The notes under the pieces are model-generated. The model was not told the origin of the DNA and ran no database searches. It was given only the letters and a program-made list of their open reading frames with translations. This document shows, piece by piece, positions 2,697 to 45,610 of a stretch of 64,000 nt of DNA (positions are counted from its first letter, which is position 1; the number at the start of each line of letters is the position of its first letter). The DNA is from Escherichia phage BEU50: sequence record OM632671.1; one strand, written 5' to 3'. A program made the position numbers and the translations under genes.

Positions 2697-2714
2697 TTTT
2701 AATAAGGCTTAATT

Positions 2715-3815
2715 ATGAAAGTTATGTTTATCCCATCTCGTGCAGTCCCATTTAATCCTGACCGTGTACAAGGTGGTCTTGAAGCGGTTCATTTGAACGT
2801 GTTGAAATATTTAGTTTCTATCGGTGCCGATATTGATTATATCGGCTTTGATAATGACACGTTTGGTGACTGGAAAGTTACACACCATCCTGTTGGTCAT
2901 CTGACTAAATTCAGTCTAGGTATGAGTTATACTATGGCTCGTAAGATTGTTGAACTAGCCGGCATCCATGAATACGATTTTGTTGTTACTATGGAACCGA
3001 CTAAACTAACCGTTCAGGCAATTAAAGACGCAGGTCTCTCTAAAGTTCATAAGAATTTTATGGCAACACCATTTGAACCAGTATCTCGTGGCATTGTTCA
3101 AATTTGGGACCAGACTATTCAAATTCATAAGAATGGCGGTAAGAGTTATGCTCCTACTAAAGCCTTCCGTGAATTTGAACGCAAATATTGTTATATGACT
3201 TCAGGTCTGACTGACAAAATCGATTATGATTATTGGCGAGCAAATCCGTTGTTTGAAGCCGAAGATTATCCGGTTATTTGTTTGACTGAAAAGCCAGAAG
3301 TTCTCCCGGCAACTGATTTGATTATTAGTGCTCAACGTTATGACACTAAGATGCGTCGCACTGATGTTGCTCTTGAAGCAATTAAAGCACTAGGCGAAAA
3401 TGGTGTAGGATACTGTCCTAGTAAATGGGCACCACCAGCTAAATATCCTGTTATTATTGATGCTCCACACAGTGAAATCATGGAACGTCTTAAAACAGCT
3501 AAAGCACTTATTAATACGTGTCCTGACACAGGTACGGTAGAGAATAGTTCTATTGAAGCCATCTCTAAAGGTGTCCCTGTAATCCAGTTAGTTTTTAAGG
3601 ATTATCCTCATGCGACATTTGAATACGACCCAGATACTGTGCGTGTAGAAATTGATTCCTCTACTCCTAAGAAAGAAGTAGTTGCGCTTTACACAAAAGC
3701 TGTATTAGAATTCACTGACACATACGAAGCTCGAGTTAAACGTGCTGAAGCAGTATGGAAGAAGTATAATCGAGATGCAGTTGTTGCGATGTGGGATAAA
3801 ATCTTCACAGCGTAA
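2715..3815 (+). CDS. hypothetical protein, possible GT-B type glycosyltransferase
   Basis: 366 aa ORF; C-terminal E-x7-EA-x3-G-x-PVI pattern (ENSSIEAISKGVPVI); not at a position of any T4 gene I recognise. Confidence 0.5.
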   Translation: MKVMFIPSRAVPFNPDRVQGGLEAVHLNVLKYLVSIGADIDYIGFDNDTFGDWKVTHHPVGHLTKFSLGMSYTMARKIVELAGIHEYDFVVTMEPTKLTVQAIKDAGLSKVHKNFMATPFEPVSRGIVQIWDQTIQIHKNGGKSYAPTKAFREFERKYCYMTSGLTDKIDYDYWRANPLFEAEDYPVICLTEKPEVLPATDLIISAQRYDTKMRRTDVALEAIKALGENGVGYCPSKWAPPAKYPVIIDAPHSEIMERLKTAKALINTCPDTGTVENSSIEAISKGVPVIQLVFKDYPHATFEYDPDTVRVEIDSSTPKKEVVALYTKAVLEFTDTYEARVKRAEAVWKKYNRDAVVAMWDKIFTA

Positions 3816-3831
3816 ATCCTGAATAGCCTGA

Positions 3832-3882
3832 GGCACTATTACACATAAGATGATAGATTATATGGTCTTTAGTAATAGTGCC
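3832..3882 (+). other. long stem-loop (11 bp perfect stem, about 29 nt loop)
   Basis: GGCACTATTAC ... GTAATAGTGCC inverted repeat in the intergenic gap; no T-run. Confidence 0.4.
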
Positions 3883-3907
3883 CTAGGAATCTACTGAAGA
3901 GAATATT

Positions 3908-4108
3908 ATGAGAACATATAACGTGGACTTGGAACTTTTTGATAAAGCAGTGCTCCGGGAATTCCGGCTTATCCAAAGATTTTTTGATATCGAATCAGCA
4001 GAGTCCTTTAAAGAACGCTTTAAAGAAATTCGATATAAAATACAAACCGATACAGCTACTAAAGAAGAACTTCTTGAAGTAGCAGAAATTTTTAAACGTA
4101 ACTTGTGA
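3908..4108 (+). CDS. small hypothetical protein (rIIA.1 position)
   Basis: 66 aa ORF with ATG and upstream purine-rich RBS. Confidence 0.5.
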   Translation: MRTYNVDLELFDKAVLREFRLIQRFFDIESAESFKERFKEIRYKIQTDTATKEELLEVAEIFKRNL

Positions 4109-4120
4109 TGAGAGAAAAAC

Positions 4121-6178
4121 ATGATTATCGAAACGGCTAAAGAAACGATTATTGGTTCTGGTGGTAAGAGCACAGCATTCACTATTCAAGGCAATAGCAA
4201 AGTTTATAAGATTTTGTCTAATGACCTTTATACAAACAAAGAATTGGCTTGTGTACGTGAATTAATCACAAACTGTATCGATGGACAAATTCTTAATGGT
4301 TGCACTGATAAGTTTATTGTTCAGGCTCCAGGTCGTTTAGACCCACGTTTTGTAGTTCGAGACTTTGGTCCTGGTATGAGTGATTTCACCATTCGAGGTA
4401 ATGACGAAGAGCCAGGAATCTATAACTCATATTTTGCTTCAACTAAAACATCGAGTAATGATTTCATTGGTGGATTCGGACTCGGCTCTAAAGCTCCATT
4501 AGCATATACTGATACGTTTAACATTACTTCTTATCATAATGGTGAAGTTCGTGGTTATGTAATTTATCAAGATGACAGTGGTCCACAAATTAAGCCAACC
4601 TTTGTAGATAAGATGGGCCCTGATGACCGTACGGGTGTAGAAGTAGTTGTGCCTGTTAACCCGGAAGATTTTGAAAAGTTCGCATCTGAAATTGCGTATG
4701 TTATGCGTCCTCTCGGCGATATTGCAGAAGTTCGTGGTGTTAAAGATATCAAATACTTCCCGGAATTCGATGATGTTTATTTAGCCAAGGAAGCTCCATG
4801 GGGTGAACGTGGTAATATCATGGCTGTTTATGGTGGTATTGTATATCCAATCGGAAGTGTTATTAAAGAACAAACATGGATGATGACGCGATGCACTACA
4901 GCTTATATCAAATTCCCTATGGGTGAACTAGATGTAGCCCCGTCTCGTGAAGCATTGTCATTTGATAAACGTACAGTAGCAAATATTCATAAACGTGTTG
5001 CAGAAATTGATGCAAAATTATTTGCTGAAGATTCTAAGAAATGGATTGATTGTGAATATCCACGTCATGTATTCCGTGAAATCGATTCTCTTGGTTACTC
5101 TGCTCGTAAATACATGGAAAAAGCCGGTTCTAATATTGAATCACTGAAATATTCTAAAGAACAACTAACTTATTCTGAGTTGTACAAACGTTTTAAAATG
5201 GGACCTGAATGGTGCAACCTTGGCGTTGTATATGATATCGTTTCAGATCCACGACTTCGTCGTATTCGTGAAAGCGGAAGCTCGTCTGCAACTATTTCAA
5301 TTAATAGCCTGCTAGGTATTAGTCGTAAGCATATTGATATTGTTATTGACGATGTGAAAGGCCGCGTACCAATGATGCGTGCTCTGAACGATGCTTTGAC
5401 TTCCACCGATGCATCAACACTCGTTGATAAGGTTCCTTCCGGACGGGGTAGTAGCGTATTATTCATTAACCCGGAAGATGAAGTTGCAATGAAACTTCTG
5501 GAACGATTAAAGGTTATTTTCGCTGGTGATAGCCTTAAATTTTATAAGACCTCTGAAATTCTTGCATTAGTTAAACCATGGATTGAAGTTAAAGAACGTT
5601 CATCGCAGCCTCGTCCTAAATCCCCAAGTGCTCATCGGTTCTTTAAGAATGAAAACGATGTTTGGGTATCAGAAGATCTCTTTATTCCGGCCGGTAAAGC
5701 TGATGAGATTCAAGGTTATGTTGTAATTCGTAATCGTTCTAACGCTGAATGTCTTGACGCAGATAAAGGTTGGTTGAACTATGATTCTAATTTCTTGACT
5801 CGTATTGCTGATTTGTCAGGTATTAAAGAGTTCACTGTAGTCCGTCCACAGATTGCTAAGAAAGTTCGTAAACTTGGTGAAGTAGAATGCTTGTTCGAAA
5901 AATCAATTAATGACTATATTACGCTAATTGATAAAGTGGATTATGATGAGTATGTATCACCAAGTCGTAGAGCACAGCCTTATTTGAATCATATTACTCG
6001 TAACGAAGAGCTTAACTTCCTTAGTAAGTATTTTAGCTCTAAGAACAAAGAAATCAGTAAAGACTTTGCAAAACTCTCAACAGTAAATAATCGCTGGGGA
6101 TGGAATCGATTCGCAGGTGCTGATAACAGAGACCTGAACAGGAAGTTAGAATTGTGCTTAAAGAGGACTCTTTTGTAG
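4121..6178 (+). CDS. rIIA: rIIA membrane-associated protein, 3-prime end ends at a junction
   Basis: 685 aa; GHKL-like boxes ([19 protein letters not shown]); about 40 aa shorter than T4 rIIA as I recall it. Confidence 0.85.
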
Positions 6179-6429
6179 ACCCAGAAATTTTCTACGGTTT
6201 GCGTGCCCGTGAAATTGAAATTGAGCCACAACCTACAGTTAAAATTGAAGGTGGTCAACACCTGAACGTTAACGTTCTGCGTCGTGAAACTCTGGAAGAT
6301 GCAGTTAAGCATCCGGAAAAATATCCGCAATTGACTATCCGTGTATCCGGTTATGCAGTTCGCTTTAACTCTCTGACTCCGGAACAGCAGCGCGACGTTA
6401 TCGCTCGTACCTTTACCGAGAGTTTGTAA
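6154..6429 (+). CDS. GrcA/YfiD-like autonomous glycyl radical cofactor, 5-prime end probably truncated
   Basis: C-terminal RVSGYAVRF glycyl-radical motif, near-identical to E. coli GrcA C-terminal half; only a GTG start available. Confidence 0.75.
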
Positions 6430-6650
6430 TGGCAAAGATAATTATTGAAGGTTCTGAAGATGTGCTAAATGCTTTCGCCGAGTGGTTTAGTAATTCAGGT
6501 GAACAACAATTTAATGAAGCGTGGAATATGGGTGATATTGATGGAATTTATCCTACGACAGAAATTTCTGTTCAGGGATATGGCATTCATGAACCTATTC
6601 GTTTAGTTGAATACGATTTATGTACTGGCGAGGAAGTCAAATATGATTGA
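6429..6650 (+). CDS. hypothetical small protein (vs.5 position)
   Basis: 73 aa ORF, ATG overlaps upstream stop. Confidence 0.5.
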   Translation: MAKIIIEGSEDVLNAFAEWFSNSGEQQFNEAWNMGDIDGIYPTTEISVQGYGIHEPIRLVEYDLCTGEEVKYD

Positions 6651-6909
6651 AGATATTAAGGGTTATAAACCACATACCGACGAAAAAATCGGTAAAGTAA
6701 ATGCTATTAAAGACGCTGAAGTTCGTTTAGGACTTATCTTTGATGCTTTATACGATGAATTTTGGGAAGCATTTGATAGCTGTGAAGATGATGAACTCGC
6801 GAAGAATTACGCCGAAAGCCTCGATCAGTTAACTATTGCTAAAACGAAACTCAAAGAAGCAAGTATGTGGGCTTGCCGTGCTGTGTTCCAACCAGAGGAA
6901 AAATACTAA
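6643..6909 (+). CDS. hypothetical small protein, candidate Vs.4/Acb2-like
   Basis: 88 aa from ATG 6643 with RBS GAGGAAG; assigned by synteny (second ORF before regB) only. Confidence 0.4.
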
Positions 6910-7187
6910 TGGCTCAATTAAGCGCAGGGTTTGGTTATGAGTATTATACTGCCCCTCGTCGTGTATCTGTTGCTCCTAAGAAAATTCAAAGTCTTGATGA
7001 TTTCCAGGAAGTAGTCCGTAACGCTTTCCAGGACTATGCACGCTATCTTAAAGAAGATTCACAGGACTGTCTCGAAGAAGATGAAATTGCTTACTATACG
7101 CAGCGTCTTGAACAGCTCAAAAATCTACATGAGGTTCGTGCCGAAGTTTCAAAGTCTATGAATAAATTGATTAGATTTAAAGAATAA
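6909..7187 (+). CDS. hypothetical small protein (vs.3 position)
   Basis: 92 aa from ATG 6909 with RBS AGAGGAA. Confidence 0.5.
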
Positions 7188-7189
7188 CT

Positions 7190-7219
7190 GTTTACTTTTC
7201 CTCTTGACTGTGGTATAAT
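7190..7219 (+). promoter_or_regulatory. T4-type early promoter
   Basis: GTTTAC, 18 nt spacer, TATAAT; upstream of regB. Confidence 0.65.
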
Positions 7220-7246
7220 TTTTCTATCAGTTAAGAGGAGAATAAC

Positions 7247-7708
7247 ATGACTATCAACACAGAAGTTTTTATCCGTCGAAATAAGCTTCGTCGTCACTTT
7301 GAGTCGGAGTTTCGTCAAATTAACAATGAGATTCGTGAGGCATCAAAAGCAGCAGGGGTCTCATCGTTTCATCTAAAATATTCTCAGCATCTTCTTGATC
7401 GTGCAATTCAACGGGAGATTGATGAGACATATGTTTTTGAATTATTCCACAAAATAAAAGACCATGTTTTAGAAGTTAATGAATTCCTGAGTATGCCTCC
7501 GCGTCCTGACATTGATGAGGATTTTATTGATGGGGTTGAATACCGTCCTGGACGTTTAGAAATCACAGATGGAAATCTTTGGCTTGGATTTACAGTTTGT
7601 AAACCTAATGCGAAGTTCAAAGACCCGTCGCTTCAATGCAGGATGGCAATTATCAATAGTCGTCGTTTACCAGGAAAGGCTTCTAAAGCAGTAATTAAAA
7701 CTCAATGA
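7247..7708 (+). CDS. regB: RegB site-specific endoribonuclease
   Basis: 153 aa, RBS AAGAGGAG; sequence matches RegB as I recall it. Confidence 0.8.
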   Translation: MTINTEVFIRRNKLRRHFESEFRQINNEIREASKAAGVSSFHLKYSQHLLDRAIQREIDETYVFELFHKIKDHVLEVNEFLSMPPRPDIDEDFIDGVEYRPGRLEITDGNLWLGFTVCKPNAKFKDPSLQCRMAIINSRRLPGKASKAVIKTQ

Positions 7709-7715
7709 GGTAAGC

Positions 7716-8261
7716 ATGAGAAAAGCACTACTCGCTGGTCTATTGGCCATTTCAATGATGGCACATAGCTCCGAGCATACTTTCAGTAATGTCCAACTCG
7801 ATAACATGCGTTACGCGTATCAATTCGGGGAACAATTTTCTAAGGATGGAAAATATAAAACACACAAAAACATCCACAAGAGCGGATTGGGTCATATAAT
7901 GGCTGCTATTTTGTGGCAAGAAAGCTCTGCCGGAGTTAATTTAAAATCTAAACCAAAGCATCACGCCTACGGAATGTTCCAAAATTATTTGCCTACTATG
8001 CGAGCGAGAGTTAAGGAACTTGGTTATAATATGACCGATGCTGAAATAAAAAGAATGTTGAATAAACGATCCAATTCAGCTTCCTGGGCGTACATTGAAC
8101 TTTCTTATTGGTTAAATATACATAAGGGCGATATAAGAAAAGCAATATCCTCTTATAATTCGGGATGGAATGTTAAAGCAGGTTCTAAATATGCTTCTGA
8201 AGTCCTAGAAAAGGCTAATTACCTTAAAAATAATAAACTTTTGGAAATAGTAAATGACTAA
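7716..8261 (+). CDS. secreted lytic transglycosylase-like protein (SLT domain)
   Basis: signal peptide; ESSAG, YGMFQ and SYNSGW motifs resembling SLT catalytic motifs. Confidence 0.6.
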   Translation: MRKALLAGLLAISMMAHSSEHTFSNVQLDNMRYAYQFGEQFSKDGKYKTHKNIHKSGLGHIMAAILWQESSAGVNLKSKPKHHAYGMFQNYLPTMRARVKELGYNMTDAEIKRMLNKRSNSASWAYIELSYWLNIHKGDIRKAISSYNSGWNVKAGSKYASEVLEKANYLKNNKLLEIVND

Positions 8262-8595
8262 AATTTTGGTTTTATGTATAGGATTAATTTCATTTTCTGC
8301 GTTAGCAGATACATCATATACTGAAATTAGAGAGTATGTAAACCGTACTGCAGCGGATTATTGCGGGAAAAATAAAGCATGCCAAGCTGAATTTGCGCAG
8401 AAATTAATATATGCATATAAAGACGGAGAAAGAGATAAATCAAGCAGATACAAAAATGATACATTGTTAAAACGATATGCTAAAAAGTGGAATACCTTAG
8501 AATGTTCAGTTGCGGAGGAGAAAGATAAAGCCGCTTGTCATTCAATGGTTGACCGTTTAGTAGATTCTTATAATCGAGGATTGAGTACTAGATGA
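8254..8595 (+). CDS. small secreted protein (vs position)
   Basis: 113 aa with N-terminal signal peptide (…FSALA). Confidence 0.5.
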   Translation: MTKILVLCIGLISFSALADTSYTEIREYVNRTAADYCGKNKACQAEFAQKLIYAYKDGERDKSSRYKNDTLLKRYAKKWNTLECSVAEEKDKAACHSMVDRLVDSYNRGLSTR

Positions 8596-9071
8596 TTGTA
8601 AAATATATCAAGGGCGATATTGTCGCCCTATTTCTTCAAGGTAATATTATTGCGCACGGGTGCAATTGCTTCCACACAATGGGCTCTGGCGTAGCAGGTC
8701 AATTAGCAAGAGCCTATCCCAAAATTTTAGAAATAGATAAAACCACTACCGAGTACGGTTCTCGTGATAAATTAGGCGATATGTCTATTGTTTTTAAACA
8801 TAGTCCTACGGGATTTGGTATATGCTATAACCTGTATACACAATACGAACCGGGTCCTAATCTTGATTATGGTGCTTTAGTAAACTGCATGATAGAATTA
8901 AATCTACAGGCAGAAACCCTTTTGTTTAAACCAGTAATTTACATTCCACGCATAGGTTGCGGTATTGCTGGTGGTGATTGGGATAAGGTTTCTAAATTAA
9001 TCGACATGTTTACTCCTGATATTGATTTAATAGTGGTGGATTATGAAAGTACATTACCCGCATCCGTTTGA
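8592..9071 (+). CDS. macro domain protein (ADP-ribose binding/hydrolase family)
   Basis: 159 aa; IAHGCNCFHTMGSGVAGQ motif typical of macro domains. Confidence 0.7.
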   Translation: MIVKYIKGDIVALFLQGNIIAHGCNCFHTMGSGVAGQLARAYPKILEIDKTTTEYGSRDKLGDMSIVFKHSPTGFGICYNLYTQYEPGPNLDYGALVNCMIELNLQAETLLFKPVIYIPRIGCGIAGGDWDKVSKLIDMFTPDIDLIVVDYESTLPASV

Positions 9072-9255
9072 TCCTAAAAACAAAGTGGAAATTATTCGTC
9101 AATGGGAACGCATTTGCCGTACTAAATGCCCAATTAATAGTCCACATGATGTAGATAAAGACTATATTGGAACATTCGTTGAATATACCTTTATTGATAG
9201 GAAAGGTCGTAAACAACATGTAGAAGAATATTGTTTAAAGGTTACATGGTTATGA
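9043..9255 (+). CDS. hypothetical small protein
   Basis: 70 aa ORF, ATG start, overlaps macro gene end. Confidence 0.35.
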   Translation: MKVHYPHPFDPKNKVEIIRQWERICRTKCPINSPHDVDKDYIGTFVEYTFIDRKGRKQHVEEYCLKVTWL

Positions 9256-9458
9256 GCCAAACTAGTATTCTTAAAAATGCCCATTGTGAAAAGTGTAAGT
9301 GGCCGATTGTTTTTGCTTTATGTAATGATGAAATGGCTTGTGATTTCGATTATTGGTGCTATTGTTCTAATAAAGGATGCATCAATCATAAAGGTGAAGG
9401 ATTTTATTCAGGATTTTATCCTTATCCTGATTTCGTTAAAGAAGGTAAACCGAAATGA
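9246..9458 (+). CDS. hypothetical Cys-rich small protein
   Basis: 70 aa from ATG 9246; CEKC…C…C…C pattern. Confidence 0.4.
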   Translation: MVMSQTSILKNAHCEKCKWPIVFALCNDEMACDFDYWCYCSNKGCINHKGEGFYSGFYPYPDFVKEGKPK

Positions 9459-9628
9459 ATAGTTTTGAGTTACAATATGAAGTGTTACGTGAGCTTGATA
9501 ATTTAATTGAACTCGCTGTCAATAAAGGTTTTGCCATTGGAATCGGTCAAAAAGATACTGGTCATTTAACTATGGAAATATTTAAGCAAAAGCGAATTAT
9601 TTTAAAACTCCTGGAAATTAATATATGA
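9455..9628 (+). CDS. hypothetical small protein
   Basis: 57 aa, ATGA overlap with upstream stop. Confidence 0.3.
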   Translation: MNSFELQYEVLRELDNLIELAVNKGFAIGIGQKDTGHLTMEIFKQKRIILKLLEINI

Positions 9629-9819
9629 GTCTGAGTAAAGAATAAAAAGATAAATTGTTTGAGCTTATCCATGAACTTCTAGATGAGCATGCAGAAGCAA
9701 ACACCTTTTATGATGAATACGGCCCGCTATCTCCCGAACAGCAAGAAGAATTTGCTGATCGGTTTGATAAGAAAGAAAACGAATTAATAGCTTATGTGAA
9801 TATGCTTTAAGAAGGTGAT

Positions 9820-10401
9820 ATGGCGAGTTTAATTTTTACTTACGCAGCAATGAATGCTGGAAAATCTGCTTCTCTTTTGACTGCTGCACATAATTATAAA
9901 GAACGCGGAATGAGTGTATTAGTTCTTAAGCCTGCTATTGATACTCGCGATTCTGTCTGTGAAGTCGTTTCTCGCATTGGAATTAAGCAGGAAGCGAATA
10001 TTATTACAGATGATATGGATATTTTCGAGTTCTATAAATGGGCTGAAGCACAAAAAGATATTCATTGCGTATTTGTAGATGAAGCTCAGTTTTTAAAAAC
10101 TGAACAGGTGCATCAATTAAGTCGAATTGTTGATACATATAATGTTCCTGTTATGGCTTATGGATTAAGGACTGATTTCGCTGGAAAATTGTTTGAAGGT
10201 TCTAAAGAACTTTTAGCGATTGCAGATAAACTTATTGAACTAAAGGCAGTTTGTCATTGCGGCAAAAAAGCGATTATGACAGCTCGATTAATGGAAGATG
10301 GAACACCAGTTAAAGAAGGTAATCAAATCTGTATTGGTGATGAAATTTATGTTTCTTTGTGTAGAAAACATTGGAACGAATTAACTAAAAAGCTCGGTTA
10401 G
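9820..10401 (+). CDS. tk: thymidine kinase
   Basis: 193 aa; P-loop AAMNAGKS; C-terminal Cys cluster. Confidence 0.9.
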   Translation: MASLIFTYAAMNAGKSASLLTAAHNYKERGMSVLVLKPAIDTRDSVCEVVSRIGIKQEANIITDDMDIFEFYKWAEAQKDIHCVFVDEAQFLKTEQVHQLSRIVDTYNVPVMAYGLRTDFAGKLFEGSKELLAIADKLIELKAVCHCGKKAIMTARLMEDGTPVKEGNQICIGDEIYVSLCRKHWNELTKKLG

Positions 10402-10443
10402 TGCAAAAGTTATAAATAGGTTTATCTAACTAAAGGGGTATAT

Positions 10444-10656
10444 ATGCTACAATTAACTGAAAAGCAACTTCGCAATCTTACTGTTCTTCAATTAGATGAA
10501 ATTCGTAGGGAAGTTGGAAATATCATTTCAGCTTTGCGTCGAGAAGTATCACTCAACCAATCTCCGGCAGACTATACTAGATTGCGAAATTTTGAAAAAT
10601 ACCTTGATAAAGTTAAGGCCGTGCATCGGCATAAAGTAAATACAGGACAAAAATGA
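10444..10656 (+). CDS. hypothetical small protein
   Basis: 70 aa ORF in tk-nrdC region. Confidence 0.45.
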
Positions 10657-10668
10657 TAGGAGGCCTTT

Positions 10669-10962
10669 ATGGCCTTAAAAGCAACGGCACTATTTGCCAT
10701 GCTAGGATTAGCGTTTGCTTTATCTCCATCGATTGAAGCGAATGTCGATCCTCATTTTGATAAATTTATGGAATCTGGTATTAGACACGTTTATATGCTT
10801 TTTGAAAATAAAAGCGTAGAATCATCTGAACAGTTCTATAGTTTTATGCGAACGACTTATAAAAATGACCCGTGCTCTTCTGATTTTGAATGTATAGAGC
10901 GAGGCGCGGAGATGGCACAATCATACGCTAGAATTATGAACATTAAATTGGAGACTGAATGA
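10669..10962 (+). CDS. hypothetical secreted small protein
   Basis: 97 aa, RBS AGGAGG, N-terminal signal peptide. Confidence 0.5.
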   Translation: MALKATALFAMLGLAFALSPSIEANVDPHFDKFMESGIRHVYMLFENKSVESSEQFYSFMRTTYKNDPCSSDFECIERGAEMAQSYARIMNIKLETE

Positions 10963-11345
10963 AATTCAGCGACTTTTCACAAAGTGGAAAACCTTCAAAG
11001 GCAGATGAATACTTAGGTTTATTAATGGCTGCACAAGCTTATTTTCATTCTGCGCATTTTGAAACTAAAAGTTATGCTAGACACAAAGCATACGATTTTA
11101 TTTTCTCCGAGTTGCCAGATTTGATTGATAAATTTGGTGAGCAATATTTGGGGTATTCTGGTAGAAAATACACACCTTCAATTCCAGATGCTAGTAAACT
11201 TCCTACCGACACAATTAAAATGATTGATCGCATACTAGACCAATCTAACAGCATTTATAAAGAAATGCCTCCAGCCATTCAAAGCACGATAGATGATATC
11301 ACTGGGATGTTTTATCAGAGTAAATATCTTCTTTCCCTCGAATAA
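10959..11345 (+). CDS. hypothetical protein
   Basis: 128 aa ORF, overlapping start with upstream stop. Confidence 0.5.
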
Positions 11346-11350
11346 CGTTA

Positions 11351-11372
11351 GTCTCCTTCGGGAGACTTTTTT
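11351..11372 (+). terminator. rho-independent terminator GTCTCC-TTCG-GGAGAC plus T6
   Basis: perfect hairpin followed by TTTTTT. Confidence 0.7.
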
Positions 11373-11382
11373 CATTTTACCG

Positions 11383-11412
11383 GTTTACTTTCCATTTGAG
11401 CTGTGATACTAT
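11383..11412 (+). promoter_or_regulatory. T4-type early promoter
   Basis: GTTTAC, about 18 nt, TACTAT. Confidence 0.55.
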
Positions 11413-11440
11413 ACAACCATCGGATAAAGAGGAGAACATC

Positions 11441-11629
11441 ATGAAAATTGAAGCACTTAATCAAGAAGGAAATATCTACGTCATCATTAATGGTGATTTT
11501 TTCGTCGACATGGATGAAGTTACCAGTGAAGAACTTGTAGAACTTCTTAAGAAACGTTATAATATGTGTGATGAAGTTGCAACTCACATGGCGTGTGCAA
11601 TATTCTCTCTTTCATATGTGGTGGAATAA
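11441..11629 (+). CDS. hypothetical small protein
   Basis: 62 aa from ATG 11441 with RBS AAGAGGAG. Confidence 0.45.
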
Positions 11630-11645
11630 TGAAAACTGAAAAGCA
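11620..11645 (+). repeat. 26 nt direct repeat copy 1 (GGTGGAATAATGAAAACTGAAAAGCA)
   Basis: identical 26-mer spanning stop/RBS/start; second copy at 12010. Confidence 0.8.
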
Positions 11646-11832
11646 AGCGGATAAAATTAAGGAATTAGTGGCTTCAATTCGTAAAGCAGATGAAGAGCTG
11701 ATTGACTTTGCTTGGTATTCATCGGGTATTTCGAATAAAGGCATTAAAGACTTTGAAACTAAAGTTGATAATGCTTTAGAAGCGTTAGATATGTTTCTTG
11801 ATGAAATTATCGATCATAATACGAGAGTTTAA
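11629..11832 (+). CDS. hypothetical small protein (MKTEKQ start)
   Basis: 67 aa from ATG inside the 26 nt repeat. Confidence 0.45.
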   Translation: MKTEKQADKIKELVASIRKADEELIDFAWYSSGISNKGIKDFETKVDNALEALDMFLDEIIDHNTRV

Positions 11833-11834
11833 GT

Positions 11835-12029
11835 ATGCTAACACGTGAACAGTTTGAAAAAATCATTAAATTAGCACGTGATGTTGAAATAGATTCATAT
11901 CAATTAGCAGTTGAGCATTGTGAAGGATATTCATACGATGGTATAGAATCAGCTAAAAGGGATTTGGATAAATCTAAAGCTAAGTTAGTCCAATATCTTG
12001 AAATGATTAGGTGGAATAATGAAAACTGA
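11835..12029 (+). CDS. hypothetical small protein
   Basis: 64 aa ORF. Confidence 0.45.
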   Translation: MLTREQFEKIIKLARDVEIDSYQLAVEHCEGYSYDGIESAKRDLDKSKAKLVQYLEMIRWNNEN

Positions 12030-12035
12030 AAAGCA
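12010..12035 (+). repeat. 26 nt direct repeat copy 2
   Basis: identical to 11620-11645. Confidence 0.8.
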
Positions 12036-12192
12036 GATGTTTTTAATGAAACTAATTGAAGAATATGCTAATGCAGTTTCTGACTATGAGCGTTCTTCTC
12101 GGGAAAGAGGTACAGCTTTCGCCAAAGAAGAAATGAAAATCATGGTTGATGCTCACACAAAGCTTCAGAATTTTATTGAAAACAACATTTAA
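12019..12192 (+). CDS. hypothetical small protein (MKTEKQ start)
   Basis: 57 aa from ATG inside repeat copy 2. Confidence 0.35.
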   Translation: MKTEKQMFLMKLIEEYANAVSDYERSSRERGTAFAKEEMKIMVDAHTKLQNFIENNI

Positions 12193-12194
12193 CG

Positions 12195-12224
12195 GTTTAC
12201 AAGTTGGCAAGGTTATGGTATAGT
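12195..12224 (+). promoter_or_regulatory. T4-type early promoter
   Basis: GTTTAC, 18 nt, TATAGT. Confidence 0.55.
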
Positions 12225-12359
12225 AATCTTGTCAACTGTCAAGGAGAAGAGAATGAAAGTTTTGTTTGTTGTGTATGTAATGATTCAATATAATTACCCA
12301 ATGTTTACTTATAATCTGGTGAACAACATTATTGATATTATTCAAAGGAGTATGTAATT

Positions 12360-12590
12360 GTGAGTGAGTCGAAGAGAATCAATATGAAACGATTAGTATT
12401 AGAAGTTAGTCCGCTTTTTGGTGAATTGGCTATAGAAAAAGTAAATAACATGTATCGTTTGACGCAAGAAGACGATATGCTATATTTTACGCCTAGTGAA
12501 ATCATTCATTTAACCCAAATTGAATATCCTTATACTGATAAAATAGTAAGTATCAATGATGAGCACAAAATTCATTGCTCGTTTGATTGA
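12360..12590 (+). CDS. hypothetical small protein
   Basis: 76 aa; GTG start 8 nt after AAGGAG (alternative ATG at 12384). Confidence 0.4.
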   Translation: MSESKRINMKRLVLEVSPLFGELAIEKVNNMYRLTQEDDMLYFTPSEIIHLTQIEYPYTDKIVSINDEHKIHCSFD

Positions 12591-12680
12591 AGTTGAAGCC
12601 CAAATTGCAGAACACACCAAATTGTTAAAAGCTCTTAATGCAAAAGCAAATGGTTTACGTAATGCTATTGAGGTATTGAA

Positions 12681-12995
12681 ATGAAAAAGCGTCTATTAGA
12701 AGACATTGCAGCTTCAAGTAATTCCAGTTTAATTAAAATTATTATGGCCGGTGAAGAAGACGATCTGGAAATGCGTGGAAAGATTTATGGTTGTGATGAT
12801 TATAGCAGCCCTATTAATTGGGATTCTGTAATGGTCATGGTTGAACGTCGCGAAAGGGCTTCTAAAAACGTTCCTAATTGCCCTGAATGTGGAACTGAAC
12901 AGGTGCAATTAGTCCATTGGCAGACTAATAATCTTCGTTATAAATGTCGCCATTGTAAACACCGATTTGACCGAGAAGAAAATGACAAAGCGTAA
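12681..12995 (+). CDS. hypothetical zinc-ribbon protein
   Basis: 104 aa; CPECG…CRHCKH. Confidence 0.5.
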
Positions 12996-13224
12996 AGAAT
13001 ATATGGAGACCGCCGAAAAGGCAGTCCGTGAATTAGCAATAGCTTATTATAATGAACACGGTAAATTTCCTGATAGATACAGCGTGCTTAAATCTGCTTT
13101 AACTCGTTCATATAAAAATATGCTATCAGAAGTAAGTGATATTATATACAAACATAAAGAACAAACGGGCCAAAGTCTTGATTACGACGAGACTTTTAAA
13201 CAAGTACTAGGAATTAAGGAATAA
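12982..13224 (+). CDS. hypothetical small protein
   Basis: 80 aa from ATG 12982. Confidence 0.45.
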
Positions 13225-13225
13225 T

Positions 13226-13489
13226 ATGTTTAAAGTATATGGTTATGATAGCAACATCCATAAATGTGTGTATTGCGATAATGCAAAACGTCTTTTGACC
13301 GTGAAGAAACAGCCGTTTGAATTTATCAACATTATGCCGGAAAAAGGTGTTTTTGATGATGAGAAAATCGCTGAGCTTCTGACTAAACTAGGTCGTGATA
13401 CTCAAATCGGCTTAACAATGCCTCAGGTATTTGCTCCTGATGGAAGTCATATTGGTGGATTTGACCAATTGCGGGAATACTTTAAATGA
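13226..13489 (+). CDS. nrdC: glutaredoxin/thioredoxin NrdC
   Basis: 87 aa; CVYC active site. Confidence 0.85.
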   Translation: MFKVYGYDSNIHKCVYCDNAKRLLTVKKQPFEFINIMPEKGVFDDEKIAELLTKLGRDTQIGLTMPQVFAPDGSHIGGFDQLREYFK

Positions 13490-13701
13490 TTCTCGAAGGA
13501 ACTGATTATATCCATGATTACCGCGGAAGCGCGGTATATGTAGGTGATGAAGTTGCAGTTTACTACGGGTATGGAACTTTGATGACAGCCAAGGTTATTC
13601 AAATTAAAAATAATCGTGCTAAACTCGAAGTTTATTATTCTAACGGCGAAAAGTCTATTTCTAAGTGGAAATACGGCGATTGTATGGTCAAACTGGGGTA
13701 A
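13486..13701 (+). CDS. hypothetical small protein
   Basis: 71 aa, ATGA overlap with nrdC stop. Confidence 0.45.
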   Translation: MILEGTDYIHDYRGSAVYVGDEVAVYYGYGTLMTAKVIQIKNNRAKLEVYYSNGEKSISKWKYGDCMVKLG

Positions 13702-13703
13702 AT

Positions 13704-13874
13704 ATGATTTACGATATTAGTGCAGCAAGAGCTCCATCAATGGTTGCTATTCCAGCTGAAGAATTAGATCGTCTTCATAAAATTGAAGAACTTCTGTGGG
13801 AAATTGAATCTGATTTGCCATCAGGATTAGAATCCTGGATTGATTATGAAGAACTTAATAAGCTTCGGGGTTAA
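13704..13874 (+). CDS. hypothetical small protein
   Basis: 56 aa from first ATG of the 13665 ORF. Confidence 0.3.
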   Translation: MIYDISAARAPSMVAIPAEELDRLHKIEELLWEIESDLPSGLESWIDYEELNKLRG

Positions 13875-13996
13875 ACCCTGGTGGGCGGCTAGATGGGAAA
13901 CTGTAGAGCCAGAGCCGGAAGAACCGGTTTACACTGATGAAGAAACAGTATATAATGAACCAACGATAAATGACTTAATTGATATGGAGATGGGAC

Positions 13997-14482
13997 ATGA
14001 TTACAGTAGATAAGTGGTTTAGAATTAATCGTGTTGATACAGGGCTATGTAATTACTGGCCGGAACTTAGTGCAGGTACTGTCTTTAAAGTTCGTGAACT
14101 TGCAAAAGAATGTGAAGATGATATAGAACCTGATACTGGAATTATTGAAATTGAACTTTCTGATGGAAAGATTATTAACATCTATGATAAGCCAATTACG
14201 TATTGGTGCTTGTGGAATACTGAATCCGTTGAAAATGGCGAAATTGAAGAAGTTGTAGAGAGAACTAGCCAAGATGCTCAGAAGCCTAAAGCCGCTTTTC
14301 AAGGTGAACGTATTTCATACGCATTAGCTAAATTAGCTGCACAAGAAAATAACGATGGTTATGAAGGAAATTTAATGCAAGCTGCCGCAGAGTACATTGA
14401 ATGGCTTGAAACTCAAATTTCTTTTTCTGACCAAATGATTCGGCAATATAAGCGATTGCATCAAATGTTTTACAATACTTGA
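13997..14482 (+). CDS. pin: Pin-like protein (protease inhibitor position)
   Basis: 161 aa from ATG 13997 with RBS GGAGA; length and position match T4 pin. Confidence 0.55.
   Translation: MITVDKWFRINRVDTGLCNYWPELSAGTVFKVRELAKECEDDIEPDTGIIEIELSDGKIINIYDKPITYWCLWNTESVENGEIEEVVERTSQDAQKPKAAFQGERISYALAKLAAQENNDGYEGNLMQAAAEYIEWLETQISFSDQMIRQYKRLHQMFYNT
14408..14482 (+). repeat. direct repeat copy A (3-prime end of pin)
   Basis: two sub-blocks (26 nt and 48 nt) recur at 14483-14510 and 14648-14695. Confidence 0.75.
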
Positions 14483-14695
14483 AAAAACTCAAAATTCTTT
14501 TTCTGACAAGGCATTTTAATGAAAACCGAATTGGTTTATACTGAAAAGTTAAATGGCGGTAAGGTTTGGAAACTTTTTATTAAAGGACATTCTACGGACC
14601 CTCATATGACCACTTGCGTAGGAACCTATTCTCGTCCTACTAAAAAGATGATTCGACAGTATAAACGATTGCATCGAATGTTTTACAATACTTAA
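14483..14695 (+). repeat. direct repeat copy B flanking a 58-codon ORF
   Basis: AAAAACTCAAAATTCTTTTTCTGACA at 14483 and ATGATTCG…TACAATACTTAA at 14648. Confidence 0.75.
14519..14695 (+). CDS. hypothetical small protein sharing Pin C-terminal 15 aa
   Basis: 58 aa ending MIRQYKRLHRMFYNT, the same tail as the pin ORF. Confidence 0.4.
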   Translation: MKTELVYTEKLNGGKVWKLFIKGHSTDPHMTTCVGTYSRPTKKMIRQYKRLHRMFYNT

Positions 14696-43522: not shown

Positions 43523-45610
43523 ATGTCTGAACAATTAAATGAAGTGTTTGAATCTGAAGGCAGTCTTCCTGTCGTCAATTTGAACCCTAAAGCTAAAGTT
43601 CCACAAGTCTGGAAAATTGGTGATATCGATACAAATATTGTAGTTCGTTTATTCTCTTACCTTTCCGAAGGCGACGCTGTAAAACAAGTTAAACTTGGCG
43701 ACAAATACGCTCATGTTGTTATTATGAGTCTGTCTGAAAAGGGTAATCTCGCTGAATTGAAAAATGGCCTTGGTCCTGCTCCTATTGATGCAATCAACAC
43801 CATTTTCAATACAGTATATGAACAAGTTAAAGCTCTTCGTATGGATGCAGTTCTGTTCCGATTCCCTACCAAGAAATTGAAAGGACGTGGACAACAGCTT
43901 CAAACTCTTCTTGCTCGTTTAGTTTCTACTAAAACCGGTGGTCGTTTTAAAGTATTGTCGGCAATGTATCAATTCACAGGTAAACACACCTATGTGATGA
44001 TGGTTCGTAAAAATGCCAACATTGAAGATATTAAAGGCATCCCTAACATTAACACAGAGTTGTACACGAAAGTAGATTCTGATGTTGGCGAAGTTTATGT
44101 GAGTAAAAAGACCGGCGAAAAAGTCACCAAAGAAACGGCTATCGCTGGTTCTATTGCTGCTGTAGAAGAAAAACGTAAAGATAAGCCTGTTATTGCTCGT
44201 ACTAAAATTTCTCGTCGTGCTATTGCCGCAAGCCAATCTTTAGAAGCTGACCGCCAAGAAGGTGAGTTATTCCAGAAATACGAAAATTCTGCTAAAGAAG
44301 TTAGTGGCCCGGCTACAGCCGAATTACTTCCTGAAGCATATGAAATCGTACTAGCCCAAGCATCATCCACAGCAAAAGGCACTTTAGTTGCTGATATCGA
44401 AAATAAGATTTATAATCGTATTGATGAATCCTTTAGATTTGCTGATGAAGTTTCTTATGGTAGTGTTATTAAGCCAACTTTAGAAAAGTTTGCTAAGAAA
44501 ATTAAAACTGAAAAAACAACATCTGTTAAAGCATTAGCTGCTTTTGTTGAAGCTGCAAACGAAATTGCGGACTCTATTAAAGACGAATGGTTTGAAGATT
44601 TTAGACGTGATAATTTCCAACTGGCCGACGATGTTTTAGCTGAAGTATCTGAAAAAACTTGGAAACAACGTAAATCAGCGTTCTTGTCTAATGTGATGTA
44701 TACTTATGCACGAGAATCGGCTAGAGGCACCTTTAATATAACAATGAATCGGGACCCTAAACAATACTCTGTTGCTGAAAAACGAGCTATTCGCGAATAT
44801 GCCTCTTCTGCGTATACCGATATCAATAATATGTTGTTAGGTCGTTATAAACCAGATTTTTACGATGTTGCAGATGAAGATGAAGTTAAACGCGCTATTG
44901 ATGGTCTTGATTCGGCGTTTTTAAATGGAGACCGTTTACCTGAAGGACTAACGTTATATAGAGCTCAGTCTATCAGAATGCCTATTTACGAAGCAATGGT
45001 TAAAAATAAGGTATTCTACTTCAGAAACTATGTTTCCACTTCACTAGCTCCTATTATTTTCGGTGGGTTTAAAGAGAACGTTGCCCTTGGACTTGCTCCT
45101 GAAGAAGTTCGCAAAGAGCTTAACATTGACAATAATGACGAAGGTGTTACCATTTCTCCTAGTCAAGTAAGAACAGCTATGCATGCGCCAGAACAAATCC
45201 GTGTTAACGTTGGATGGGCTATTGATGGCGCCCATAAAGTTAACGTGATTTATCCAGGACAGTTGAGTAATCACCCTAATGAGCAAGAAATTATTTTGCC
45301 TAGAGGCATTCTCTTGCAGATAAATAAAATTACAGATGCGTCATCTGACACCGGTGCAGGTTTAGAATCCAACCTTAAATTTATTCAAGCTGAAGTCATG
45401 TCCTCGGACCAGTTGGACGAAGCTGTCATTTACGATGGTGATGTTCTCATGGAAACAGGCGAGGTAGTTGCTATGACGGGTGAAATCGAATCAGATGAGC
45501 CGGTATCTTTTGCCTCATTTGTAGAAAAAACTAGTGCACCTAAAGGTTTGAAATTGTTAGCATCTTTAATGGATTTAGAATCAGTTCCGTTTAAATTTAT
45601 CCAAGGATAG
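43523..45610 (+). CDS. alt: Alt ADP-ribosyltransferase (packaged)
   Basis: 695 aa; ART-like R/STS/E arrangement (LYRAQS, STS, QEIILP); position next to gene 54. Confidence 0.8.
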   Translation: MSEQLNEVFESEGSLPVVNLNPKAKVPQVWKIGDIDTNIVVRLFSYLSEGDAVKQVKLGDKYAHVVIMSLSEKGNLAELKNGLGPAPIDAINTIFNTVYEQVKALRMDAVLFRFPTKKLKGRGQQLQTLLARLVSTKTGGRFKVLSAMYQFTGKHTYVMMVRKNANIEDIKGIPNINTELYTKVDSDVGEVYVSKKTGEKVTKETAIAGSIAAVEEKRKDKPVIARTKISRRAIAASQSLEADRQEGELFQKYENSAKEVSGPATAELLPEAYEIVLAQASSTAKGTLVADIENKIYNRIDESFRFADEVSYGSVIKPTLEKFAKKIKTEKTTSVKALAAFVEAANEIADSIKDEWFEDFRRDNFQLADDVLAEVSEKTWKQRKSAFLSNVMYTYARESARGTFNITMNRDPKQYSVAEKRAIREYASSAYTDINNMLLGRYKPDFYDVADEDEVKRAIDGLDSAFLNGDRLPEGLTLYRAQSIRMPIYEAMVKNKVFYFRNYVSTSLAPIIFGGFKENVALGLAPEEVRKELNIDNNDEGVTISPSQVRTAMHAPEQIRVNVGWAIDGAHKVNVIYPGQLSNHPNEQEIILPRGILLQINKITDASSDTGAGLESNLKFIQAEVMSSDQLDEAVIYDGDVLMETGEVVAMTGEIESDEPVSFASFVEKTSAPKGLKLLASLMDLESVPFKFIQG

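What the first reader, a model, noticed from the sequence alone, without database searches (positions are those of the whole stretch)
8592..9071. Macro domain protein in the early vs-tk accessory region
The 159 aa ORF has the macro-domain signature IAHGCNCFHTMGSGVAGQ and sits among early small ORFs after an early promoter. Macro domains bind or hydrolyse ADP-ribose adducts. In a phage that itself encodes the ADP-ribosyltransferase Alt, such a protein could reverse host or toxin ADP-ribosylation (for example DarT-type) or tune phage-directed modification. I cannot confirm whether T4 has an orthologue at this position.
Basis: partly seen in the sequence, partly recalled or inferred. Interest (0 to 1): 0.6.

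Follow-up and report, generated by a model that had tools for sequence, protein, structure and literature searches.

The report
T4 tk.4 (AdfM) macrodomain orthologue
This gene is a real macrodomain enzyme, a divergent copy of the phage T4 gene tk.4 (recently renamed adfM), which T4 needs to resist the bacterial DarTG2 defence, so the finding is correct but already known.

Summary
Window 8592..9071 (+) is a 159-aa ORF that passes Pfam's Macro threshold and gives a confident macrodomain model (pLDDT 94). Its closest solved folds are TARG1, Poa1p, BT1257 and DarG. The window is a T4-like Tequatrovirus, and the ORF lies between vs and the tk.3 orthologue, where T4 has tk.4 ("phosphatase, A1pp motif"). 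It is 58% identical to T4 Tk.4.

A 2025 preprint shows that tk.4 is the only T4 gene needed to resist DarTG2, and renames it AdfM.

The family is not DarG-type. An invariant Gln (Q84, 259/259 members) sits where TARG1 and DarG have their catalytic Lys. The same is true of Streptomyces SCO6735, a proven hydrolase of thymidine-linked ADP-ribose on DNA. The family also contains Vibrio phage Gary Adpp (39% identical), a proven ADPR-1''-phosphate phosphatase of NARP1 operons. The closest full genome, SHFML-11, has no NARP1.

Most likely function: early-expressed removal of DarT2 ADP-ribose from phage DNA. This is inferred and was not tested for this allele.

Novelty is low. Side observations: the gene body is a sharply bounded allelic cassette, and the window itself is a patchwork with two unique junctions.

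The parts
8592..9071 (+). Macrodomain CDS (159 aa plus stop). It is the orthologue, as a divergent allele, of T4 tk.4 / adfM.
   Evidence: ORF list. Pfam Macro at 32 bits. 58% identity to T4 Tk.4 in the syntenic position. AF2 model with pLDDT 94.2. Best PDB fold matches are TARG1, Poa1p, BT1257 and DarG.
8649..8702 (+). Motif 1, residues 20-37 (IAHGCNCFHTMGSGVAGQ). It holds H22, N25 and the first Gly-rich loop that contacts the distal ribose and phosphate.
   Evidence: H22, G23, N25, C26, G33 and A35 are invariant or nearly so in 259 family members. N25 aligns with PhiKZ AdfM N23 and SCO6735 N27, and H22 with SCO6735 H24 and Poa1p H23.
8829..8843 (+). Catalytic-loop motif N80-L-Y82-T83-Q84. 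Q84 (CAA, 8841-8843) occupies the position of the catalytic Lys of TARG1 (K84) and DarG (K80), and of the essential Gln85 of SCO6735.
   Evidence: Q84 is present in 259/259 members and Y82 in 259/259. Supported by profile alignments to TARG1 and DarG and by the MSA. The SCO6735 Q85A data are in PMC9411070.
8946..8981 (+). Motif 2, residues 119-130 (PRIGCGIAGGDW): the diphosphate-binding Gly-rich loop.
   Evidence: Conserved across the family. T4 Tk.4 differs here (GAGIGKGNW).
8630..9040 (+). Divergent allelic cassette. Identity to T4 is 42-77% here, against 98-100% upstream and 88-97% downstream.
   Evidence: Sliding identity to T4 and base-level boundaries.
8611..8629 (+). GC-rich hairpin (AGGGCGAT-ATT-GTCGCCCT) inside codons 7-13. 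It is identical in T4 and ends exactly where the divergence from T4 begins.
   Evidence: Terminator-like hit. Alignment to T4 and RNAfold energies of -12.9 and -13.4 kcal/mol. Its function is unknown.
7191..7219 (+). Best sigma-70/early-promoter-like site, upstream of regB. It is the likely start of the regB-vs.1-vs-macro-...-tk transcript.
   Evidence: 10/12 match with an extended -10 TG. The downstream ORFs overlap or abut one another. This is a consensus match only, not above chance in number.
7247..8595 (+). Upstream genes, probably co-transcribed: regB (7247..7708), vs.1 SLT-like (7716..8261) and vs (8254..8595).
   Evidence: ORFs. Annotation of the syntenic regions in SHFML-11 and T4. 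SLT hit for vs.1.
9043..9255 (+). Downstream tk.3 orthologue (DUF7202). It overlaps the macro ORF by 29 nt.
43523..45610 (+). Alt-like ADP-ribosyltransferase (695 aa).
   Evidence: tblastn with the SHFML-11 Alt paralogues gives 36-42% identity and E down to 4e-175.

Best explanation
The ORF is a divergent allele of the phage T4 accessory gene tk.4 (adfM). It encodes a single-domain macrodomain hydrolase of the ALC1/TARG1-like class. It belongs to the Gln-type subgroup, in which an invariant glutamine (Q84) replaces the catalytic lysine of TARG1 and DarG. It is probably made early in infection from the polycistronic regB-vs.1-vs-tk.4-...-tk transcript, translationally coupled to vs. It binds the ADP-ribose moiety through D9, N25 and two Gly-rich loops, and hydrolyses the bond at C1'' of the distal ribose with a positioned water molecule. 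Its most likely biological substrate is ADP-ribose that the host toxin DarT2 attaches to thymidines in single-stranded phage DNA. Removing it lets replication proceed, so the phage escapes DarTG2 defence. Shown here: the ORF, the fold, the family signature, synteny with tk.4 and the absence of a NARP1 partner. Taken from the literature on homologues: the anti-DarTG2 phenotype (T4 Tk.4), thymidine-ADPr hydrolysis by a Gln-type enzyme (SCO6735) and ADPR-1''-P phosphatase activity (Gary Adpp). Inferred: that this 58%-identical allele does the same, and the timing of its expression.
For: The ORF and the Macro HMM hit are established. The model is confident, and its top fold matches are TARG1, Poa1p, BT1257 and the DarG macrodomains. 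The ORF sits in the same position as T4 tk.4 and is 58% identical to it over the full length. T4 tk.4 was the single Tn-seq hit against DarTG2 and its knockout is sensitised (10.1101/2025.11.20.689424). All invariant family residues (H22, N25, C26, D49, N80, Y82, Q84, W130) are present in both the window and T4 alleles. Q84 aligns with SCO6735 Gln85. SCO6735 cleaves DarT-made thymidine-ADPr on ssDNA, its Q85A mutant is inactive, and it protects cells from DarT (PMC9411070). T-even phages are all DarTG2-resistant, and AdfA and AdfN do not account for that resistance (PMC11257639). Neither the window nor the whole SHFML-11 genome, which carries the same allele, has Adps or Namat. This argues against a NARP1-linked phosphatase role here.
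Against: There is no biochemical or genetic test of this allele, and the T4 evidence is genetic and from a preprint. The closest biochemically characterised homologue by sequence is Gary Adpp, a phosphatase and not a DNA hydrolase: 38.7% identity and 114 profile bits, against 69 bits for BT1257 and 45 for DarG. The protein lacks features SCO6735 uses for DNA. The K34 equivalent is Ser32, the mobile loop after Q84 is shorter and has no lysines, and the protein is acidic (pI 5.0 against 9.5). T4 Tk.4 has an unusual loop 2 (GKGNW; K127 occurs in only 4/259 members) that the window allele lacks, so the two alleles could differ in substrate.
Confidence: 0.65

Rival explanations
1. Its main job is small-molecule chemistry. 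On this view it is an ADPR-1''-phosphate phosphatase (Adpp/Poa1p-like) that converts the product of RES-type NAD+ phosphorolysis (aRES defence), or of Tpt1/KptA reactions, back to ADP-ribose. This is not mutually exclusive with DNA de-ADP-ribosylation.
For: Gary Adpp, shown in vitro to dephosphorylate ADPR-1''-P, is the closest characterised homologue: 38.7% identity, E=1e-25, and the same signature AH-CNC ... N-Y-Q ... GCGLAGGDW. tblastn with Adpp finds essentially the same ~2,700 phage records as the window protein. Public annotations call it 'phosphatase' or 'Poa1p-like'. The window allele has the consensus loop 2 shared with Adpp.
Against: Adpp works only together with NARP1 (Adps plus Namat). 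Deleting any of the three genes abolished the anti-aRES activity. No Adps or Namat homologue is in the window or anywhere in SHFML-11. The T4 orthologue's only conditional phenotype was against DarTG2.
Confidence: 0.2
2. It reverses protein ADP-ribosylation. The target would be either the phage's own Alt/ModA/ModB marks on host proteins (tuning) or marks made by host ART toxins on phage proteins.
For: An Alt-like ART is encoded in the window. TARG1 and SCO6735 also remove Glu/Asp-linked ADP-ribose from proteins. Arginine-specific macrodomains exist (MavL, PMC10951314, listed).
Against: By established knowledge, Alt, ModA and ModB modify arginines, and no member of this subgroup is known to cleave Arg-ADPr. 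No MavL-type structure is among the top 50 fold matches. In T4, tk.4 showed reduced transposon-insertion read counts specifically in the presence of DarTG2.
Confidence: 0.07
3. It acts mainly without catalysis, by binding DarT2 or ADP-ribosylated DNA and blocking the toxin (an antitoxin mimic).
For: Catalytically dead SCO6735 Q85A still inhibits DarT in vitro, more strongly than dead DarG or TARG1. Other phage anti-DarT factors (AdfA, AdfB) are direct inhibitors.
Against: The full set of active-site residues is invariant across 259 diverse members, which points to selection on catalysis. There is no C-terminal DarT-binding domain like that of DarG: the protein is 159 aa, and the NCBIfam DarG model scores 27.7 bits against a 250-bit cutoff.
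Confidence: 0.05
4. It is a YmdB/MacroD-like O-acetyl-ADP-ribose deacetylase or RNase III regulator, as some database records label it.
For: JGI and GenBank labels read 'O-acetyl-ADP-ribose deacetylase (regulator of RNase III)' or 'RNase III inhibitor'.
Against: E. coli YmdB (5cb3) is only rank 33 in the fold search (E=2.8e-6), behind all ALC1-class members. Loop 1 is MGSGVAG, not the MacroD-type GGG-V-D motif. The labels are transferred COG names.
Confidence: 0.02

Closest known systems
Phage T4 Tk.4 = AdfM (anti-DarT factor Macrodomain), NP_049723; bioRxiv 10.1101/2025.11.20.689424
   Same: It has the same genomic slot between vs and tk.3, the same length class (155 vs 159 aa), 58% identity over the full length and all invariant family residues. 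The first 13 codons and the hairpin within them are identical at the DNA level.
   Different: 42% of residues differ. Loop 2 is consensus GCGIAGGDW here and GAGIGKGNW in T4. The anti-DarTG2 phenotype has been shown only for the T4 allele.
Streptomyces coelicolor SCO6735 (PDB 5e3b) and Bacteroides BT1257 (2fg1/2afc): Gln-type ALC1-class macrodomains; PMC9411070
   Same: These are also stand-alone single-domain proteins with the same fold. They have Gln at the TARG1-K84/DarG-K80 position, equivalents of H24 and N27, and a GCGLAGG-W loop. SCO6735 hydrolyses thymidine-ADPr on ssDNA.
   Different: Identity is only 25-27%. The K34 equivalent is Ser32. The mobile loop is shorter and lacks lysines. 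The window protein is acidic where SCO6735 is basic. The bacterial enzymes are housekeeping or SOS-linked, not phage-encoded.
Vibrio phage Gary Adpp (KNV71_gp137), ADPR-1''-phosphate phosphatase of the NARP1-AP pathway; bioRxiv 10.64898/2026.01.28.702374
   Same: It belongs to the same sequence family (38.7% identity, 114 bits to the family profile), has the same signature including Q84 and loop 2, and is a phage accessory gene.
   Different: Adpp is embedded between Adps and Namat. The window gene has no such neighbours, and its closest relative's genome has none at all.
DarG antitoxin macrodomain (PDB 5m3i, 5m31) and PhiKZ gp104 'AdfM'; PMC5179494, PMC13309987
   Same: It shares the macrodomain fold (TM 0.73-0.78), the conserved Asn (N25 = PhiKZ N23) and an N-x-x-T motif before the catalytic position. 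The biological target, DarT2-modified thymidine, is presumably the same.
   Different: DarG and PhiKZ gp104 carry the FPTK catalytic lysine, where the window protein has Q84. DarG has a second, DarT-binding domain. PhiKZ gp104 matches Mtb DarG at E=9e-25 but scores only 33 bits against the window family's profile. The name AdfM therefore covers two different macrodomain lineages.
Human TARG1/OARD1 (PDB 4j5r) and yeast Poa1p (6lfq-6lfu)
   Same: These are the best fold matches (E ~1e-9, TM up to 0.83), and they have the same loop architecture.
   Different: The TARG1 catalytic dyad K84/D125 is Q84/A126 here. Identity is 20-24%.

Membership tests
Macro domain superfamily (Pfam PF01661) | Profile HMM score above the curated gathering threshold over the full domain | tested here: met
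   32 bits against a 22-bit cutoff, covering profile positions 2-117 of 118.
Macro domain superfamily (Pfam PF01661) | Three-layer alpha/beta/alpha macro fold | tested here: met
   AF2 model with pLDDT 94.2 and pTM 0.89. 166 PDB matches at E<=1e-3; all 50 listed are macrodomains or serine hydrolases designed on a macrodomain scaffold.
Macro domain superfamily (Pfam PF01661) | ADP-ribose-binding elements: an N-terminal Asp for adenine, a conserved Asn and two Gly-rich loops | tested here: met
   D9, N25, M30-G-S-G-V-A-G36 and I121-G-C-G-I-A-G-G128 are all present and conserved. Their contacts are inferred by alignment, not from a ligand-bound structure.
T4 tk.4 / AdfM orthologous group | Syntenic position between vs and tk.3 in a Tevenvirinae early region | tested here: met
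   regB-vs.1-vs-macro-tk.3 is colinear with T4 and SHFML-11.
T4 tk.4 / AdfM orthologous group | Full-length sequence similarity to T4 Tk.4 | tested here: met
   58% identity over 155 aa, E=1e-70.
T4 tk.4 / AdfM orthologous group | Required for growth on DarTG2-expressing hosts | not testable with these tools
   Shown only for T4. A plaque assay is needed.
Gln-type ALC1-class macrodomains (SCO6735/BT1257) | Gln at the position of TARG1 K84 / DarG K80 | tested here: met
   Q84, present in 259/259 members. Supported by the alignments.
Gln-type ALC1-class macrodomains (SCO6735/BT1257) | DNA-positioning lysines (SCO6735 K34 and K89) and a long basic mobile loop | tested here: not met
   The K34 equivalent is Ser32. 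The loop after Q84 is shorter (YEPGPN) and has no Lys. The pI is 5.0.
Gln-type ALC1-class macrodomains (SCO6735/BT1257) | Hydrolysis of thymidine-linked ADP-ribose on ssDNA | not testable with these tools
   An enzyme assay is needed.
DarG antitoxin (NCBIfam NF048014) | Score above the equivalog cutoff, and a two-domain architecture with a DarT-binding C-terminal domain | tested here: not met
   27.7 bits against a 250-bit cutoff. Only model positions 2-142 of 338 are matched, and the protein is 159 aa. The PADLOC DarG model scores 27.5 bits on the macro part only.
DarG antitoxin (NCBIfam NF048014) | Catalytic lysine in the FPTK motif | tested here: not met
   NLYTQ in place of NFPTK.
DarG antitoxin (NCBIfam NF048014) | Encoded next to a darT toxin gene | tested here: not met
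   The neighbours are vs and the tk.3 orthologue. A bacterial homologue (Pelagimonas) is also stand-alone.
Adpp (NARP1-associated ADPR-1''-P phosphatase) | Sequence membership in the Poa1p-like phage macro family | tested here: met
   38.7% identity to Gary Adpp, 114 bits to the family profile and a shared signature.
Adpp (NARP1-associated ADPR-1''-P phosphatase) | Located within two genes of Adps and Namat (a NARP1 operon) | tested here: not met
   tblastn finds no Adps or Namat in the window or in the whole SHFML-11 genome.
Adpp (NARP1-associated ADPR-1''-P phosphatase) | ADPR-1''-P phosphatase activity | not testable with these tools
   An LC-MS assay is needed.
MacroD/YmdB type | Closest fold and sequence relatives are MacroD-type, with the GGG-V-D loop-1 motif | tested here: not met
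   YmdB is rank 33 in the fold search. Loop 1 is MGSGVAG.

The most novel reading that the evidence does not exclude
The two deeply divergent tk.4 alleles that circulate in otherwise ~98%-identical Tequatroviruses may not be functionally equivalent. The window type has the consensus loop 2 GCGIAGGDW, as in Adpp and SCO6735. The T4 type has GAGIGKGNW, with a rare Lys. They could be exchangeable anti-defence cassettes with different substrate ranges. For example, they might act on different DarT2 variants, or on DNA-linked ADP-ribose versus ADPR-1''-phosphate from RES-type NADases. The cassettes would be swapped by recombination anchored at the conserved hairpin at the 5' end of the gene. One Gln-type macrodomain family would then underlie two counter-defences that have been published under separate names (AdfM and Adpp).
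Probability: 0.15. Interest if true: 0.55.

Novelty: already known. Interest (0 to 1): 0.22.

Why it matters
The gene is one layer of the T-even phages' stacked counter-measures against DarTG toxin-antitoxin defences: AdfA and AdfN act against DarTG1, and AdfM against DarTG2. For annotation, three practical points follow. (1) Hundreds of Tequatrovirus records label this gene 'hypothetical', 'phosphatase' or 'RNase III inhibitor', and some give it a truncated 130-aa start. (2) The name AdfM now covers two unrelated macrodomain lineages, Lys-type PhiKZ gp104 and Gln-type T4 Tk.4. (3) T4 AdfM and the NARP1 phosphatase Adpp belong to one sequence family, so one or both activities may be general to the family. 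None of this changes the basic picture, which is already published.

Tried and rejected
(1) I tested DarG membership and rejected it. The NCBIfam DarG score is far below its cutoff, there is no FPTK lysine, no second domain and no darT neighbour.

(2) At first the Gln-for-Lys replacement looked like a new catalytic variant, or a sign of an inactive enzyme. I rejected that once PMC9411070 showed that Gln-type SCO6735 is a highly active thymidine-ADPr hydrolase.

(3) I tested a NARP1-linked Adpp role by searching for Adps and Namat in the window and in the complete SHFML-11 genome. Neither was found.

(4) I looked for a toxin partner next to a bacterial homologue (Pelagimonas P0094). There was none.

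(5) I took the 685-aa ORF at 4121..6178 for a novel GHKL ATPase, because it had no Pfam, NCBIfam or PADLOC hit. It turned out to be rIIA, cut off at an assembly-like junction.

(6) I searched for ModA, ModB and AdfA (61.2) in the window and found none.

(7) I searched for both junction sequences in 50,697 phage records and in IMG/VR and found none.

(8) The promoter scan gave no promoter directly upstream of the ORF, and no enrichment over shuffles.

Full report
**Observation**

Window 8592..9071 (+) is an intact 159-aa ORF with an ATG start. The quoted motif IAHGCNCFHTMGSGVAGQ is residues 20-37. The ATG overlaps the TGA stop of the upstream gene (ATGA), with GAGG 12 nt upstream. The protein passes Pfam's gathering threshold for Macro (PF01661: 32 bits against 22, E=1.3e-7, nearly full profile coverage). 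It also hits PHROG 335 'phosphatase' at E=1e-71. It has 794 homologues in the word-indexed search. A profile of 104 of these finds 17,901 cluster representatives at E<=1e-3 and 1,174 at E<=1e-30.

**Where it sits**

The 2.75 kb around the ORF is 98-99.6% identical to many Tequatrovirus (T4-like) genomes. The best match is Shigella phage SHFML-11. The gene order regB, vs.1, vs, macro, tk.3-like..., tk, rI matches both T4 and SHFML-11.

T4 has an orthologue in exactly this slot: tk.4 (NP_049723, 155 aa), annotated 'phosphatase; contains A1pp phosphatase motif'. A1pp is the older name for the macro domain. The tk.4/A1pp link was already tabulated in 2006 (PMC1524935). The window protein is 58% identical to T4 Tk.4 over the full length.

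The only strong sigma-70-like site nearby lies upstream of regB, at 7191..7219. The ORFs from regB to the macro gene abut or overlap. Expression from a polycistronic early transcript is therefore plausible but inferred, and promoter-like hits are not enriched over shuffles.

**Structure and family**

An AlphaFold2 model built on 104 homologues is confident (pLDDT 94.2, pTM 0.89). Its best PDB matches are:
- TARG1 (E 6e-10, TM up to 0.83)
- yeast Poa1p
- Bacteroides BT1257
- the DarG macrodomains of Thermus and Mycobacterium

These all belong to the ALC1/TARG1-like class.

Across 259 diverse members the family has a sharp signature:
- H22-G-C-N25-C26
- G33 and A35
- D49
- K60-L-G62
- N80-x-Y82-T83-Q84
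- P119-x-I-G-x-G-x-A-G-G-D-W130

Profile alignments and an MSA place the invariant Q84 on the catalytic lysine of TARG1 (K84) and DarG (K80, FPTK motif). They place A126 on TARG1 D125. The protein is therefore not a Lys-type enzyme and not a DarG:
- The NCBIfam DarG equivalog scores 27.7 bits against a 250-bit cutoff.
- There is no second domain.
- There is no darT neighbour.
- A bacterial homologue is also stand-alone.

**What is known about homologues**

1. T4 Tk.4. In a T4 transposon-insertion screen, tk.4 was the single significant hit on a DarTG2 host. A clean knockout sensitised T4 to DarTG2, and the authors renamed the gene adfM. From fold similarity to DarG they proposed enzymatic removal of ADP-ribose from DNA (bioRxiv 10.1101/2025.11.20.689424). 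Earlier work had noted that T-even phages resist DarTG2 by an unknown factor distinct from AdfA and AdfN (PMC11257639).

2. SCO6735 of Streptomyces coelicolor (PDB 5e3b). This stand-alone macrodomain has Gln85 at the Lys position. It cleaves DarT-made thymidine-ADPr on ssDNA and protects cells from DarT. Its Q85A mutant is inactive, and a water-mediated mechanism was proposed (PMC9411070). BT1257 is 57% identical to it. The Gln is therefore an established catalytic variant and not a defect.

3. Vibrio phage Gary Adpp. This Poa1p-like macro protein sits between the NARP1 genes Adps and Namat. It dephosphorylates ADPR-1''-phosphate in vitro and is needed, together with NARP1, to overcome the aRES defence (bioRxiv 10.64898/2026.01.28.702374). 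From the sequence in that paper's Table S1, Adpp is 38.7% identical to the window protein (E=1e-25). It scores 114 bits against the family profile and carries the same signature, including Q84 and GCGLAGGDW. tblastn with Adpp and with the window protein recover about the same 2,700-2,800 phage records.

4. PhiKZ gp104, also named AdfM. It removes DarT2 marks from DNA in vitro (PMC13309987), but it is a true DarG-type protein. It carries FPTK and matches Mtb DarG at E=9e-25, yet scores only 33 bits against the window family's profile.

So T4 AdfM and PhiKZ AdfM share a name but not a lineage, while T4 AdfM and Adpp share a lineage but not a name.

**Which function applies here**

The Adpp role requires NARP1. 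tblastn finds no Adps or Namat in the window, or anywhere in the 170.6-kb SHFML-11 genome, which carries the same macro allele. The syntenic orthologue has a DarTG2-specific phenotype.

I therefore favour DNA de-ADP-ribosylation against DarT2 (confidence about 0.65). ADPR-1''-P phosphatase is a non-exclusive rival (0.2).

Reversal of the phage's own Alt/Mod marks is unlikely. Those marks are arginine-linked by established knowledge, and no relative in this subgroup is known to cleave them. In T4, tk.4 showed reduced transposon-insertion read counts specifically in the presence of DarTG2. The window does encode an Alt-like enzyme at 43523..45610.

Several features weaken the DNA-hydrolase reading:
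- The SCO6735 K34 equivalent is Ser32.
- The loop after Q84 is short and has no lysines.
- The protein is acidic (pI 5.0).
- T4 Tk.4 has an unusual loop 2 (GAGIGKGNW; K127 in 4/259 members) that this allele lacks.

**Allelic cassette**

Identity to T4 is 98-100% up to nt 8629. It drops to 42-77% through about 9040 and returns to 88-97% in tk.3. The break begins exactly after a perfectly conserved 8-bp GC-rich hairpin at 8611..8629.

Both alleles are common in public phage records:
- 312 records are >=90% identical to the window type.
- 224 records are >=90% identical to the T4 type, and a further 158 are 80-90% identical to it.

This pattern of gene-sized swaps fits an accessory or anti-defence gene. 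Whether the alleles differ in specificity is open.

**Verdict**

The domain has been annotated in T4 for two decades, and the anti-DarTG2 role was published in 2025. This analysis adds four things:
- the subfamily assignment (Gln-type, SCO6735/Adpp-like, not DarG-like)
- the link between the AdfM and Adpp literature
- the absence of NARP1 in SHFML-11, the closest complete genome, which carries the same allele
- the cassette boundaries

**Side note on the window**

The window is a patchwork relative to every public T4-like genome:
- 1-6156 is the gene 39/rIIA region.
- 6158-17016 runs from vs.6 through tk to nrdD.
- 17017 onward runs from gene 36/35/34 towards gene 23.

Both junctions cut genes. 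Neither is found in 50,697 phage records or in IMG/VR. The local regB-tk operon that holds the macro gene is intact, so this does not affect the conclusion. It does suggest a misassembly or an unusual rearrangement.

Noticed in passing
window 6157/6158 and 17016/17017: The window is not colinear with any public T4-like genome. A 10.9-kb block (truncated vs.6/GrcA through tk to part of nrdD) sits between the gene 39/rIIA region and genes 36/35/34. In T4 that position holds rIIB...gene 37. Both junctions cut genes. Neither is present in 50,697 phage records or in IMG/VR. This is probably an assembly chimera or a rearranged, defective genome.
   Followed up: partly
window 4121..6178 (+) and 6154..6429 (+): The 685-aa ORF is rIIA cut short at the 6157 junction and reading 21 nt into foreign sequence. 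It has GHKL-ATPase-like motifs by eye but no Pfam, NCBIfam or PADLOC hit. The following 91-aa ORF is a 5'-truncated GrcA/vs.6 glycyl-radical cofactor. The intact gene is a 363-nt CDS in both T4 and SHFML-11.
   Followed up: partly
window 8611..8629: A perfect 8-bp GC-rich hairpin with a T-rich tail lies inside codons 7-13 of the macro ORF. It is identical in T4 (-12.9 and -13.4 kcal/mol) and lies exactly at the 5' edge of the divergent cassette. It might be an RNA element or a recombination anchor. This is untested.
   Followed up: partly
window 9263..9854: The stretch between the tk.3 orthologue and tk is unrelated to T4 tk.2/tk.1 (12-55% identity). It carries instead a phage zinc-binding domain ORF (PF23895, 9231..9458), a 57-aa ORF and a DUF7438 ORF (9655..9810). 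This is a second swapped cassette in the same operon.
   Followed up: no
L001 5980..6372 (SHFML-11 BH804_gp019), equivalent to window 8592..9071: RefSeq annotates the SHFML-11 orthologue from an internal ATG as 130 aa. That start removes strand 1, the adenine-contact Asp and the H-G-C-N-C motif. The full 159-aa frame is open and is conserved from residue 1. This is a likely start-codon misannotation, propagated in several records.
   Followed up: partly
window 43523..45610 (+): This Alt-like ADP-ribosyltransferase (695 aa) is only 36-42% identical to either of the two tandem Alt paralogues of SHFML-11, so it is a divergent Alt variant. No ModA, ModB or AdfA (61.2) homologue lies in the window.
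   Followed up: no
literature / L006 3501..3977 (Vibrio phage Gary Adpp): There is a nomenclature clash. 'AdfM' is used both for Lys-type, DarG-like PhiKZ gp104 and for Gln-type T4 Tk.4, which are only remotely related. Meanwhile T4 AdfM and the NARP1 phosphatase Adpp belong to one sequence family.
   Followed up: yes
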